Under the pieces are notes generated by a model. That model was not told the DNA's origin. It saw only the letters and a program-made list of their open reading frames with translations, and made no database searches. This document shows positions 1-37,515 of a DNA stretch of 37,515 nucleotides, in pieces. Source of the DNA: a virus; the IMG/VR virus record IMGVR_UViG_3300025326_000008, one strand, 5' to 3'. Position 1 is the first letter of the stretch, and the number at the start of each line of letters is the position of its first letter. The translations under genes were made by a program, and so were the position numbers.

Positions 1-127
1 ACTTTGTGCTAGATATCCAAGGGCCGGTACAGTCCTTTAACGCAGAACTTAAATACCGGCCTTTTTTAATATCTTCTTTCTAAATACATCACCTAACTTG
101 GTCATATTGTCGAGGTAATTATCCATG
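1..127. repeat. 127-bp terminal overlap, copy 1 (identical to 37389..37515)
   Basis: Direct comparison: bases 1-127 (actttgtgctagatatcc...ggtaattatccatg) recur base for base at 37389-37515. This is consistent with a circular contig closed by a k-mer-length overlap, or with a short direct terminal repeat. Confidence 0.9.
22..67 (+). terminator. Plus-strand intrinsic-terminator-like hairpin of cassette F (duplicate copy of 37410..37455)
   Basis: ggccggta (22-29) pairs with taccggcc (54-61) around a 24-nt loop, followed by T6 (62-67) on the plus strand. It overlaps the stop codon of the minus-strand gene 49..399. Confidence 0.45.
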
Positions 128-399
128 TTAATTTCGTGTTCTACCGGCGGATCGTTGTCTATGACAAAACCTTCGAACATTCTCATTGGCGAATTTTCAA
201 ATAAAAACACTTCTTTCTTCCGCTTCCATTTACTCTTGCATTCTTCTGCGGTCATATAATGTGTGTGTCCTTCACAGGTTACCTTTAACATTCTATCTTG
301 TCTTTCGGCTTGTTTAACGTATTTGGCGTTTATACGAACACAAGGGAAATCTTTGTAAACGAACATTGCTTTGTCGATTGGTACTTCTATAAAATCCAT
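49..399 (-). CDS. Hypothetical protein (116 aa)
   Basis: ORF track. ATG at 399 with an AGAGGA SD-like motif about 7 nt upstream. No family recognised. Confidence 0.6.
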   Translation of the reverse strand: MDFIEVPIDKAMFVYKDFPCVRINAKYVKQAERQDRMLKVTCEGHTHYMTAEECKSKWKRKKEVFLFENSPMRMFEGFVIDNDPPVEHEINMDNYLDNMTKLGDVFRKKILKKAGI

Positions 400-436: not shown

Positions 437-586
437 TCAGGTAAGAAAGGTATCACCGTCTTTGTGAGTTTCGTGTCTTAGTTTCATAGTGTTTATATCC
501 CTACCACCTGAAGGTGAAAGAAACACGTTCCCCCCCTCCCCCCTTAGGTTAATGTAAACGATTGCTTCAGCCGAAAATTGTTTCAT
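437..586 (-). CDS. Possible small ORF (49 aa, MKQFSAEAIVYINLRGEGGN...)
   Basis: Hand translation. ATG at 586 with GGAGG about 14 nt upstream. Contains the G6-A-G7 tract. Below the ORF-track size cutoff. Confidence 0.25.
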   Translation of the reverse strand: MKQFSAEAIVYINLRGEGGNVFLSPSGGRDINTMKLRHETHKDGDTFLT

Positions 587-1001: not shown

Positions 1002-1089
1002 CTACCACTTAAACATACAAACTAGAAGCAAACTGTATCATGTGTTATACTTAGTGACAGGAGACAGCTCGGCATTGAAAGATGTCGGG

Positions 1090-1587
1090 CTATTTTCTTT
1101 TAAGGTGTTCTACGTTCTCGTGTTCTTTGTTAGAAGAATATAGTTTAAGATTTTTAAGTCGATTGTCTAGTTTATTTCCATTGATATGATGAACCACCTC
1201 GCCCACCAATAGATATCTTCCAGTTTCCTTTTCCATAACCAGTCGATGTTCTCTTACATAACCCATTGAATTTGCATATGGATGTTGGGACATCTTTATC
1301 AAGAAGTATCCGTGTTTTATAATTTTGCCACCCAAACCTTTGTTCCACGGAGTTCTTCCTATCATTTTAGAAGTATCTTTTATTTTCCAGTGCATTCCCA
1401 ATACGCCACTGGTCTTTCCTTTCTTAATCTCGCTCATTATTTGTTTTACTTTTGCCGAGTGTCTCTTACCGAAAAACGAGTTTTTTGGTCCGATTCTACT
1501 TTTTCCCAAACAAGATCGACTACAAAATTTAGATTTTCGATTTCTACTTTTATATGTTTTATGACAAAAGGCACAATTAAATACCAT
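1090..1587 (-). CDS. HNH homing endonuclease (HNH_3-like), paralog of 23414..23956
   Basis: Motif EHRLVMEKETGRYLLVGEVVHHINGNKLDNRLKNLKL, plus N-terminal Cys motifs (CAFCHK, FCSRSC). The track ORF begins at TTG 1611. The first ATG (1587) sits 6 nt downstream of a good -10 box, so it is preferred. Confidence 0.85.
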   Translation of the reverse strand: MVFNCAFCHKTYKSRNRKSKFCSRSCLGKSRIGPKNSFFGKRHSAKVKQIMSEIKKGKTSGVLGMHWKIKDTSKMIGRTPWNKGLGGKIIKHGYFLIKMSQHPYANSMGYVREHRLVMEKETGRYLLVGEVVHHINGNKLDNRLKNLKLYSSNKEHENVEHLKRK

Positions 1588-10133: not shown

Positions 10134-10167
10134 TTCCTCCCCAGACATGGGGATACCTAGCAATTCC

Positions 10168-10196
10168 CTTATATCATTTTTAAAACACATTGTCAA
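10168..10196 (-). promoter_or_regulatory. Promoter of cassette D (extended -10)
   Basis: Minus strand: TTGACA (10196..10191), 17-nt spacer ending aaaTGA, TATAAG (10173..10168). The leader holds a 6-bp hairpin, tcccca-tgtc-tgggga (10138..10153). Confidence 0.55.
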
Positions 10197-15461: not shown

Positions 15462-15668
15462 ATGATTAAAGCCTTTTTAGTCGGTCTTTATTATCTTGGT
15501 TTGGCATTCTACCTTTGGTTTTACTTTGCTAACCAGGGAATGGAATTTGCGGATAATTTCAGAGCTAATACCAATAAGGTGTTTATTCTTGTGGTAATAA
15601 TTCCTAATATCGTTCTATTCTTATTCCTTTTAAGGTATCTAAAATCCAAACTCACTTCTCCTCATTGA
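15462..15668 (+). CDS. Small two-TM membrane protein (68 aa), the only convincing plus-strand gene
   Basis: ORF track: LVGLYYLGLAFYLWFYF and VFILVVIIPNIVLFLFLL. It has its own promoter. The caveat is that AT-rich antisense sequence can mimic hydrophobic ORFs. Confidence 0.5.
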   Translation: MIKAFLVGLYYLGLAFYLWFYFANQGMEFADNFRANTNKVFILVVIIPNIVLFLFLLRYLKSKLTSPH

Positions 15669-37014: not shown

Positions 37015-37161
37015 CTAGCCTTGGTTATCGCTTGGATAAACCTTGCGGCATTTAAGACAATAAAGGCGGTGTCCGGTAGGAAAAGGTATTCTTGTACCGC
37101 AACCTTTACAATATTTAGTTTTATACCTTGTAAGTTCGGCTTTGGTTAGTTTTTCATTCAT
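37015..37161 (-). CDS. Small zinc-ribbon protein (48 aa from MNEKLTKAEL)
   Basis: YCKGCGTRIPFP...YCLKCRKVY. ATG 37161 gives an 8-nt overlap with the upstream gene. The track ORF extends to ATG 37203, a 50-nt overlap. Confidence 0.45.
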   Translation of the reverse strand: MNEKLTKAELTRYKTKYCKGCGTRIPFPTGHRLYCLKCRKVYPSDNQG

Positions 37162-37351
37162 TGAATAGTTTTTTTGCAATCTCTGGCGTAACCAACCCGG
37201 CATCGGGGTCTACCCAATCAGGGGAACCACTAATGAAGGTGATTATTTTGGGAAGCAATTTGGTTTTGAATCTAAACACGAAAGCCGGATCCCATTTAGA
37301 AGGTGGCCTGTTATAACAAAAGTCTAATCCTTTAAGTAATTCATCTTTCAT
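37154..37351 (-). CDS. Hypothetical protein (65 aa)
   Basis: ORF track. ATG at 37351. Confidence 0.5.
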   Translation of the reverse strand: MKDELLKGLDFCYNRPPSKWDPAFVFRFKTKLLPKIITFISGSPDWVDPDAGLVTPEIAKKLFNE

Positions 37352-37362
37352 TTTAGTAGCAC

Positions 37363-37391
37363 TTGACCGACTTGACTGCCAATGATATACT
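37363..37391 (+). promoter_or_regulatory. Plus-strand promoter of cassette F (same extended -10 motif as cassettes A-E)
   Basis: TTGACC (37363-37368), 17-nt spacer ending aaTGA, TATACT (37386-37391). A perfect direct repeat ACTTGAC-cg-ACTTGAC spans the -35 region. Confidence 0.5.
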
Positions 37392-37515
37392 TTGTGCTAG
37401 ATATCCAAGGGCCGGTACAGTCCTTTAACGCAGAACTTAAATACCGGCCTTTTTTAATATCTTCTTTCTAAATACATCACCTAACTTGGTCATATTGTCG
37501 AGGTAATTATCCATG
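37389..37515. repeat. 127-bp terminal overlap, copy 2 (identical to 1..127)
   Basis: See copy 1. Bases 37437..37515 duplicate the 3' part of gene 49..399. Confidence 0.9.
37410..37455 (+). terminator. Plus-strand intrinsic-terminator-like hairpin of cassette F
   Basis: ggccggta (37410-37417) pairs with taccggcc (37442-37449), followed by T6 (37450-37455). It starts about 12 nt downstream of the predicted TSS. The 24-nt loop is large for a terminator. Confidence 0.45.

What the first reader, a model, noticed from the sequence alone, without database searches (positions are those of the whole stretch)
37363..37455. Sixth cassette on the opposite strand: predicted ~58-nt antisense RNA over the 3' end of gene 49..399
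What the sequence shows:
- The same promoter type (TTGACC-17-TGATATACT) occurs once on the plus strand.
- About 12 nt after the predicted start comes an 8-bp GC-rich hairpin plus T6 (37410-37455, equivalent to 22-67).
- No plus-strand gene lies downstream.
- The transcript would be fully complementary to the last codons, the stop codon and the 3' UTR of the minus-strand gene 49..399.

Interpretation: this resembles the lambda oop RNA arrangement, a short terminated antisense RNA over the 3' end of cII. It also suggests the cassette can work as a small-RNA gene, not only as a leader. The -35 region carries a perfect direct repeat, ACTTGAC-cg-ACTTGAC, which could be an operator. The element spans the assembly junction, which argues that the circular join is real.
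Basis: partly seen in the sequence, partly recalled or inferred. Interest (0 to 1): 0.6.

Follow-up and report, generated by a model that had tools for sequence, protein, structure and literature searches.

The report
Conserved backward small-RNA unit in phage
At the point where this uncultured phage's late genes meet its early genes there is a tiny backward-facing transcription unit (strong promoter, about 57 bases, bulged hairpin, stop signal). Two diverged relatives keep it through compensating mutations, so it is probably a real short antisense RNA of the lambda-oop kind, not a chance motif.

Summary
TTGACC-17-TGaTATACT (37363-37391, +) is followed by a hairpin and T6 (37407-37455, = 19-67). 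The unit overlaps the stop codon and last codons of minus-strand gene 49..399. Such a composite did not occur in 150 shuffles.

Two diverged relatives (L001/L079 and L089/L090) keep a consensus-like promoter, the spacing, the hairpin shape and the T-run on the same backward strand. Eight of 17 hairpin pairs show compensatory changes.

Two other relatives (L002, L007) lack it at this spot, and 65 more distant relatives have no copy.

L004, L090 and L002 carry analogous backward units at nearby gene boundaries.

New caveats:
- The RNA sequence is not conserved; only the architecture is.
- The hairpin pairs better in the sense RNA (98% against 88% of cells).
- The ACTTGAC repeat is not conserved.

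Best reading: a cis-acting oop-like antisense unit at the late-to-early boundary. A head-on transcriptional insulator is the main rival. No expression data could be obtained.

This scan has noted oop-like units in many other phages, so this is a new member of a known kind.

The parts
37363..37368 (+). -35 hexamer TTGACC of the backward (plus-strand) promoter
   Evidence: The homologous position in L001 and L089 reads TTGACA.
37361..37376 (+). Direct repeat ACTTGAC-cg-ACTTGAC. The second TTGAC lies only 8 nt from the -10 hexamer and so cannot serve as a -35.
   Evidence: It is not present in L001 or L089, so there is no support for an operator.
37383..37391 (+). Extended -10, TG-A-TATACT
   Evidence: L001 has TGATACAAT and L089 has TAAACT without the TG.
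37396..37399 (+). Predicted transcription start (purines 5-8 nt after the -10 hexamer). The predicted RNA runs from about 37399 to about 37455, roughly 57 nt, and contains no ATG.
   Evidence: Inference from promoter geometry. Not measured.
37407..37451 (+). Bulged hairpin: outer stem, inner 6-bp stem, 7-nt loop and 3-nt bulge. It equals window 19-63.
   Evidence: Folds. Covariation across three lineages: 8 of 17 pairs have compensatory changes.
37450..37455 (+). T6 tract completing a plus-strand intrinsic terminator. It equals window 62-67 and is the complement of two Lys codons of the sense gene.
   Evidence: T5-T6 is kept in L001, where it is non-coding, and in L089.
37437..37515 (-). 3' end of the 116-aa gene (= 49..127 of gene 49..399). 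Its stop codon lies inside the hairpin.
   Evidence: Homologues.
37154..37351 (-). First gene after the boundary (65 aa). Its start codon lies 11 nt from the backward -35. It has no Shine-Dalgarno sequence and no convincing promoter of its own.
1043..1101 (+). Second backward unit, not in the finding: extended -10 TGtTATACT (1043-1051), hairpin 1066-1091 and tail ATTTTCTTTT. It overlaps the stop of the HNH gene and lies upstream of the 93-aa gene.
   Evidence: The fold is -20.3 kcal/mol on plus against -7.7 on minus. The analogous unit is at L004:15-110 on the minus strand.

Best explanation
This is a genuine small convergent transcription unit.

**How it would work**
- Host RNA polymerase starts at a strong sigma-70-type promoter on the strand opposite to all neighbouring genes.
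- It makes a non-coding RNA of about 57 nt, consisting of a short 5' tail and a bulged hairpin.
- It stops at the hairpin-plus-U6 terminator.
- The RNA is perfectly complementary to the 3' end of the message that runs off the last block of the late region: the stop codon and 3' UTR of the 116-aa gene.
- The sense RNA folds into the mirror-image hairpin, which is even more stable.
- I infer that the two RNAs pair in cis, loop to loop and then fully, as lambda oop does with cII mRNA.
- The duplex is then cut or destabilised. This sets the 3' end and lowers the level of the sense message, and reduces the transcript that continues into the first early-region genes.

**What is shown:** the promoter, hairpin and terminator, their statistical rarity, and their conservation with covariation in three lineages.

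**What is inferred:** that the RNA is made, that it pairs with the sense RNA, and what follows from the pairing.
For: - **Rarity.** Promoter plus terminator are far beyond chance.
- **Conservation.** Three lineages have 52-70% identity in the flanking protein. All keep TTGAC(C/A), a 16-17-nt spacer and TAnnnT, placed 14-18 nt before the hairpin, then T5-T6, on the backward strand.
- **Promoter geometry under selection.** The spacers between the hexamers are not alignable in register.
- **Non-coding T-run.** In L001 the T-run is non-coding and is still kept.
- **Hairpin covariation.** Eight of 17 pairs carry compensatory changes; 0 of 500 shuffles reach this.
- **Strand control.** The best promoter score in the gap, backward against sense, is 11.5 vs 8, 12.5 vs 9 and 10 vs 9.5.
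- **Cis rather than trans.** The loop and the 5' tail are not conserved in sequence. A cis-antisense RNA predicts this; a trans-acting RNA with a fixed seed does not.
- **Mismatches.** The C.A mismatches in the antisense stem resemble the bulges typical of natural antisense RNAs (own knowledge of CopA-type RNAs).
- **Layout.** It matches pO-oop-tO of lambda, where the terminator hairpin overlaps the 3' end of cII and cleavage depends on RNase III (PMC5869508).
Against:
- The unit is absent from two syntenic relatives, L002 and L007.
- The overlap with coding sequence is small and not conserved.
- The hairpin pairs better in the sense orientation in all three lineages. Six U.G pairs in the sense RNA become C.A mismatches in the antisense RNA, which may mean the structure is selected in the sense RNA.
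- Similar backward units sit at other gene boundaries. This fits a general boundary role better than control of one gene.
- Only three lineages are available, so the covariation statistics are thin.
Confidence: 0.45

Rival explanations
1. Head-on transcriptional insulator. What matters is the act of convergent initiation, not the RNA. Polymerases bound at and leaving the strong backward promoter collide with late-operon polymerases. Together with the stable sense-strand hairpin, they stop those polymerases from running over the late-to-early boundary on a circular or concatemeric genome. The immediate terminator only protects the late genes from antisense transcription.
For: - The sense strand has no canonical terminator other than the five that sit directly behind cassette promoters. 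Nothing canonical therefore ends the last late operon before the junction.
- Backward units recur at other gene boundaries in this sub-clade: window 1043-1101, L004, L090 and a tandem pair in L002.
- Only the architecture is conserved, not the RNA sequence.
- In the podophage LUZ19 and all 15 other Phikmvvirus species, a conserved antisense promoter in the early region was hypothesised to stop read-around into early genes (PMC10914365).
Against: - In known cases of promoter interference, elongating polymerases usually dislodge promoter-bound ones rather than the reverse (own knowledge of phage 186 pR/pL work).
- The 65-aa and Zn-ribbon genes just behind the boundary have no promoter of their own, so they seem to need read-through.
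- The form of the genome in the cell is unknown.
- L002 and L007 do without the unit at this spot.
Confidence: 0.25
2. Antitermination-responsive cassette. The unit is a seventh member of the promoter-leader-terminator family. Early in infection it yields the short RNA. Once the phage's presumed antiterminator acts, polymerase reads through and makes a long antisense transcript over the 116-aa, 93-aa and HNH genes, shutting that block off late.
For: - The promoter type is the same as in the five sense cassettes, TTGACA-17-aaTGATATA.
- There is an 11-of-12 match of the initial transcribed region to cassette 2, TGCTAGRTATCC.
- The second backward unit in L090 has the full architecture of promoter, small leader hairpin and terminator.
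Against: - The leader is only about 10 nt before the hairpin, against 30-60 nt in the sense cassettes, and it lacks their separate small hairpin.
- The shared motif is absent from relatives' cassettes.
- The antiterminator itself is hypothetical.
Confidence: 0.1
3. The selected element is the sense-strand hairpin: a T7-style RNase III processing or 3'-stabilising stem-loop between transcription blocks. The backward promoter is secondary or incidental.
For: - In the sense orientation 98% of cells pair, against 88% in the antisense orientation. All six non-Watson-Crick cells are U.G in the sense RNA.
- Sense folds are 5-8 kcal/mol more stable in every lineage.
- Two stacked helices of about 20 bp with an asymmetric bulge resemble T7 RNase III sites (own knowledge).
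Against: - It does not explain the conserved backward -35/-10 with fixed spacing, or the T-run kept where it is non-coding.
- The wobble events number about four if shared ancestry is allowed for, so the strand bias is not significant.
- The model finds no other copy of such a hairpin between other genes of the phage.
Confidence: 0.1
4. Trans-acting small RNA, type I antitoxin RNA, replication primer, or no function (a decaying leftover of a leftward operon's control region).
For: - 3'-overlapping antisense RNAs are typical of some type I toxin-antitoxin pairs (own knowledge).
- In L090 a possible opposite-strand ORF with its own extended -10 follows the second backward unit, hinting that relatives may have leftward genes.
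Against: - There is no conserved single-stranded seed.
- The overlapped proteins are charged and are not small hydrophobic toxins.
- There are no iterons and no skew switch.
- Covariation and promoter retention argue against decay.
Confidence: 0.1

Closest known systems
Phage lambda pO-oop-tO unit (OOP RNA)
   Same: - It is a short non-coding RNA made from its own sigma-70 promoter.
- It ends at an intrinsic terminator hairpin.
- It is convergent with, and overlaps, the 3' end of a protein gene.
- It acts in cis by pairing, with RNase III-dependent cleavage (PMC5869508).
   Different: - There is no sequence or Rfam relationship.
- The RNA is about 57 nt, not 77 nt.
- The coding overlap is 0-19 nt, against 52 nt in lambda.
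- It sits at the late-to-early boundary of a one-directional short-tailed phage, not between a lysogeny regulator and the replication genes.
- There is no sign of a lysis-lysogeny switch.
Antisense promoter P001 of LUZ19 and other Phikmvvirus podophages
   Same: - It is a single backward promoter at the start of the early region of a podophage whose genes all lie on one strand.
- It faces the end of the late region and is conserved among relatives.
- It was proposed to prevent read-around into early genes (PMC10914365).
   Different: - The LUZ19 promoter is read by the phage's own RNA polymerase and gives long antisense transcripts over structural genes.
- Here the promoter is host-type and the transcript is terminated after about 57 nt.
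The five sense-strand promoter-leader-terminator cassettes of this same phage
   Same: - The promoter flavour is the same (TTGAC-17-TGaTATA).
- The terminators are canonical hairpin-plus-T6-7.
- There is an 11-of-12 match to the start of cassette 2's leader.
   Different: - It lies on the opposite strand with no gene behind it.
- The leader is about 10 nt rather than 30-60 nt, with no separate small leader hairpin.
- The terminator is a long bulged hairpin.
P22 sar RNA and type I antitoxin RNAs that overlap toxin 3' ends (e.g. SR4/bsrG, RatA/txpA)
   Same: They are small cis-antisense RNAs with their own promoter and terminator inside phage or prophage DNA (own knowledge).
   Different: - sar covers a ribosome-binding site. 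Here the next start codon is 47 nt outside the RNA.
- The overlapped proteins are not small hydrophobic toxins.

Membership tests
Cis-encoded antisense small RNA of the oop type (functional class, not a sequence family) | Own promoter on the strand opposite to the target gene | tested here: met
   - TTGACC-17-TGaTATACT is present.
- It is kept as TTGACA-16-TGaTACAAT in L001 and TTGACA-17-TAAACT in L089.
- The backward reading beats the sense reading in the same gap.
Cis-encoded antisense small RNA of the oop type (functional class, not a sequence family) | Intrinsic terminator giving a short, non-coding transcript | tested here: met
   - A hairpin plus T5-T6 is present in all three lineages.
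- There is no ATG in the predicted RNA.
Cis-encoded antisense small RNA of the oop type (functional class, not a sequence family) | Overlap with the target mRNA | tested here: met
   - The unit overlaps the stop codon and 5-6 codons in the window and in L089.
- In L001 it overlaps only the 3' UTR.
Cis-encoded antisense small RNA of the oop type (functional class, not a sequence family) | The RNA is actually made and changes the level of the target | not testable with these tools
- No cultured phage or host is available.
Lambda OOP RNA as a homologous family | Sequence or structure similarity to a curated RNA family | tested here: not met
   There is no Rfam match at gathering score over the whole window, nor at E <= 10 over 37200-37515 beyond two chance-level hits.
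This phage's promoter-leader-terminator cassette family | Promoter type TTGACA-17-(a)aTGATATA followed by a canonical terminator | tested here: met
This phage's promoter-leader-terminator cassette family | Leader of 30-60 nt with a small separate hairpin, placed directly in front of a gene on the same strand | tested here: not met
   - The -10 hexamer is 15-18 nt from the hairpin, with no separate hairpin.
- No same-strand gene follows.
Type I toxin-antitoxin (3'-overlapping antitoxin RNA) | The overlapped gene encodes a small hydrophobic toxic peptide | tested here: not met
   - The overlapped protein is 116 aa and rich in Lys and Glu, with no family hit.
- In L001 the unit follows a different, 88-aa charged protein.

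The most novel reading that the evidence does not exclude
The backward promoter-terminator units (this one, the one at 1043-1101 and those in relatives) are a modular 'collision terminator'. In this reading, a phage that lacks ordinary terminators at operon ends ends or throttles sense transcription at gene-block boundaries with a strong head-on promoter, paired with a stable sense-strand hairpin. The small RNA is a by-product. That would be a way of punctuating a one-directional genome that has not been described as a dedicated element.
Probability: 0.2. Interest if true: 0.7.

Novelty: new member of a known kind. Interest (0 to 1): 0.42.

Why it matters
**What it would add**
- If the RNA is made, this is a conserved antisense regulator in a group of uncultured short-tailed phages.
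- The phage appears to run its whole programme with host polymerase and promoter-proximal terminators.
- The unit marks where the late programme ends and the early one begins. It is also one of only two elements (with the plus-strand unit at 1043-1101) that face the last late operon on a strand with no canonical terminator at that point.
- It gives a compact, testable part of about 95 bp for studying head-on transcription or antisense control.

**Limits**
- Small backward RNA units of this kind are already known from lambda, P22 and transcriptome studies of lytic phages.
- This scan has met many similar ones on other DNA.
- The gain is therefore a well-supported new example plus a boundary hypothesis, not a new principle.

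Tried and rejected
**Searches that found little or nothing**
- Nucleotide search of the junction against GenBank phages: no match.
- Rfam, at gathering score and at a permissive threshold, and tRNA/tmRNA search: nothing.
- Relatives through the 65-aa and 93-aa proteins in IMG/VR, and through the 116-aa family in GTDB genomes: none.
- First DNA pattern (AGATAT..CCA..TACA..TTAAATA) in IMG/VR: 12 hits, of which 11 were AT-rich coding chance matches.
- Invariant-column pattern: only the two known contigs.
- Covariance model R1 over 808 kb of relatives: only the training lineages.

- No whole genome is held for this window.

**Ideas rejected**
- Operator role of the ACTTGAC repeat: it is not conserved.
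- Trans-acting seed: AGATATCCAAG-like sites are not enriched (19 found against 12 expected), and the 5' tail differs in L089.
- Replication origin: the GC skew is uniform and there are no iterons.
- A conserved sense-strand promoter in the gap.
- An antisense unit at the 3' end of the second HNH gene: none is there.

**Uninformative**
- L004 cannot speak to conservation here, because a recombination breakpoint inside the 116-aa gene makes the cassette 100% identical to the window.
- The structure of the 116-aa protein has pLDDT 61, and no Foldseek hit is better than E = 0.59.

Full report
**1. What is there**

The window is one whole circular assembly. Bases 37389-37515 repeat 1-127 exactly, so the genome is 37,388 bp. 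Two independent metagenome contigs read straight across the join, so the join is real (L003 and L004).

Every credible gene but one lies on the minus strand. Read in the sense direction, the order is as follows:
- small early-type genes from 37351 downwards (65 aa, Zn-ribbon, Mor-like HTH behind a perfect TTGACA-16-TATAAT);
- terminase, portal and capsid genes;
- a long structural and lysis region;
- a metallophosphatase, an HNH gene, a 93-aa gene and the 116-aa gene 399..49.

The finding therefore sits in the 85-nt gap where the end of the late region meets the start of the early region.

**2.

- -35 TTGACC lies at 37363-37368. After 17 nt comes TG-A-TATACT at 37383-37391.
- This composite occurs once on both strands, against 0.03 expected.
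- A purine start is expected at about 37396-37399.
It has an outer stem GGCCGGTA/TACCGGCC, extendable to 11 pairs, an inner 6-bp stem, a 7-nt loop and a 3-nt bulge. T6 follows at 37450-37455 (-17 kcal/mol, z -3.7).
- The stop codon of the 116-aa gene lies inside the hairpin, and the T-run is the complement of its Lys-Lys codons.
- The predicted RNA of about 57 nt has no ATG.

I ran a shuffle test for 'extended -10, then hairpin, then T-rich tail' on one strand.

| Criterion | Expected per genome | Observed on the plus strand |
|---|---|---|
| Any composite | 0.35 | 3 |
| dG <= -14 | 0.07 | 2 |
| dG <= -14 and -35 of at least 5/6 | 0 of 150 shuffles | 1 (this unit) |

**3. Relatives**

The 116-aa protein has few relatives. 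They fall into five lineages.

| Lineage | Identity of the 116-aa protein | Unit at this boundary? |
|---|---|---|
| Window group (L003, L004) | 100% and 89% | Yes, identical sequence |
| L001 = L005 = L079 | 70% | Yes |
| L089 = L090 | 52% | Yes |
| L002 = L088 | 50% | No |
| L007 = L087 | 55% | No |

- L004 is not informative. A recombination breakpoint in the middle of the 116-aa gene leaves the cassette 100% identical to the window.
- **L001** carries the unit one gene further on, behind an extra 88-aa gene. On the backward strand it reads TTGACA-16-TGaTACAAT, then 17 nt, a bulged hairpin and T5.
- **L089** carries it directly behind the 116-aa homologue, again with the stop codon inside the hairpin. 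It reads TTGACA-17-TAAACT, then 14 nt, a hairpin and T6.
- The spacers between the promoter hexamers cannot be aligned in register, yet the hexamers and their spacing are kept.
- In L001 the T-run is non-coding and is still kept.
- In a gap-free three-way alignment, 8 of 17 hairpin pairs carry compensatory double changes. None of 500 shuffles reaches this, and slid controls collapse.
- In L002 and L007 the 116-aa gene abuts the next gene, and the unit is absent there.
- A covariance model built from the three copies finds nothing else in 808 kb of relatives. An IMG/VR scan for the invariant columns finds only the two known contigs.

The element is thus real and under selection, but it is confined to a small sub-clade and can be dispensed with.

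**4. Strand control**

An earlier check in this scan (note e1-2648716) warned that backward promoter look-alikes can be as common forwards. I therefore scored both strands of the gap.

| Lineage | Best backward score | Best sense score |
|---|---|---|
| Window | 11.5 | 8 |
| L079 | 12.5 | 9 |
| L090 | 10 | 9.5 |

- In the window only one other plus-strand site combines at least 10 of 12 hexamer matches with a TG. That site drives the single plus-strand gene at 15462.
- The T-run is on the backward strand in all three lineages. The sense strand has no U-tract after the hairpin.

The hairpin gives the opposite signal.
- It pairs better in the sense RNA: 98% of cells against 88%.
- All six mismatches in the antisense orientation are C.A, which are U.G wobbles in the sense RNA.
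- Sense folds are 5-8 kcal/mol more stable in every lineage.
- Allowing for shared ancestry, this is about four events. It is suggestive, not significant.
- It fits either a second role of the hairpin in the sense RNA or the bulged stems typical of antisense RNAs.

**5. New observations that change the picture**

- A second plus-strand unit lies at 1043-1101. It has TGtTATACT, a hairpin at 1066-1091 that is strongly plus-specific (-20.3 against -7.7 kcal/mol), and a T-rich tail. It overlaps the stop of the HNH gene and lies just upstream of the 93-aa gene's own promoter.
- L004 has the analogous unit with a different hairpin sequence.
- L090 has a second backward unit just upstream of its 116-aa gene, with a small leader hairpin.
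- L002 has two tandem backward units at another boundary.
- The distant relative L061 has a weak one 5.3 kb upstream of its terminase gene, about where this one lies.
- In 730 kb from 65 terminase relatives, same-strand cassettes outnumber backward ones 19 to 2. The backward units are therefore a speciality of this sub-clade's boundary region.
- The window's sense strand has no canonical terminator other than the five directly behind cassette promoters. Nothing canonical stops the last late operon from reading over the junction.
- The 65-aa gene behind the junction has neither a Shine-Dalgarno sequence nor a promoter of its own.

**6. How it most likely works**

Shown: a conserved convergent promoter, a bulged hairpin and a terminator at a gene-block boundary.

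Inferred: host polymerase makes an RNA of about 57 nt that is fully complementary to the 3' end of the sense transcript.

Only the architecture is conserved, not the loop or the 5' tail, so a cis mode is far more likely than a trans-acting seed.

| Reading | Weight |
|---|---|
| oop-like antisense RNA: pairing, processing or destabilisation of the sense 3' end, less read-through | 0.45 |
| Collision-type insulator in which the RNA is a by-product | 0.25 |
| Read-through under antitermination, giving a long late antisense transcript | 0.10 |
| Sense-strand processing or stabilising hairpin as the primary element | 0.10 |
| Everything else | 0.10 |

The insulator reading draws support from the missing sense terminators, from the recurrence of such units at other boundaries, and from the LUZ19/Phikmvvirus precedent. 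In those phages a conserved backward promoter in the early region was proposed to stop read-around (PMC10914365).

**7. Comparison with what is known**

- The unit works like lambda pO-oop-tO (PMC5869508) but is not homologous to it or to any Rfam family.
- It shares the promoter flavour of this phage's five sense cassettes, and an 11-of-12 stretch with cassette 2. It fails that family's leader and gene-context features, and the shared stretch is not seen in relatives.
- It is not a type I toxin-antitoxin pair. The overlapped proteins are charged, 88-116 aa, and have no family. The AlphaFold model of the 116-aa protein is weak and matches nothing significantly.

**8. Verdict**

This is a real, conserved small antisense unit. 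The operator idea is unsupported, and the target is a boundary rather than a particular ORF.

It is a new member of a known kind. This scan has already recorded many oop-like units on other DNA, though none resembles this sequence. Interest is moderate. The boundary-insulator reading is the part worth an experiment.

Noticed in passing
window 1043-1101 (+): There is a second backward promoter-hairpin-T-rich unit (TGtTATACT; hairpin 1066-1091). It overlaps the stop of the HNH gene and sits back to back with the 93-aa gene's TTGATT-16-TACAAT promoter. The hairpin is strongly plus-strand specific.
   Followed up: partly
L090:195-300 (-) and L090:1-170 (-): The L089/L090 lineage has a second backward unit (TTGAAG-17-TATAAT, small leader hairpin, terminator) just upstream of its 116-aa gene. 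Behind it is a TGATATAAT box 5 nt before a GTG-started opposite-strand ORF that runs off the contig end. It has no homologue in any fetched locus, so relatives may carry a leftward gene.
   Followed up: partly
L002:2195-2349 (-): Two tandem backward promoter-hairpin-T units lie at the boundary between a 61-aa and a 77-aa gene, in the lineage that lacks the unit behind its 116-aa gene.
   Followed up: partly
window, minus strand, whole genome: The only strong canonical sense-strand terminators are the five directly behind cassette promoters (6766, 10135, 15974, 21787, 30258). No terminator closes the late region before the early genes.
   Followed up: partly
L004:860-1020 against window 399..49: There is a recombination breakpoint in the middle of the 116-aa gene. 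Upstream of it L004 is about 60-75% identical to the window; downstream it is 98-100% identical for 1.2 kb. This is mosaic exchange inside a gene.
   Followed up: yes
window 530-544 and L089:383-396: A long G-run on the sense strand (G6-A-G7 in the window, G5-C-G7 in L089) lies upstream of the 116-aa gene in both lineages, at different distances (about 130 nt and about 20 nt). Its role is unknown.
   Followed up: no
window 37154-37351 (-): The first gene after the boundary has no Shine-Dalgarno sequence and no convincing promoter. Its start codon lies 11 nt from the backward -35, so its expression seems to depend on read-through across the unit.
   Followed up: partly
window 10160-10175 (-) and 37394-37406 (+): The initial transcribed regions of sense cassette 2 and of this unit share TGCTAG(G/A)TATCC (11 of 12) at a similar distance from the -10 hexamer. 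The motif is absent from relatives' cassettes.
   Followed up: partly
window 49-399 (-): The 116-aa protein is conserved in five lineages but has no Pfam or PHROG family. The AlphaFold model has pLDDT 61. The top Foldseek rows are Holliday-junction resolvases (Hjc, RecU) at non-significant E-values of 0.6-3.
   Followed up: partly
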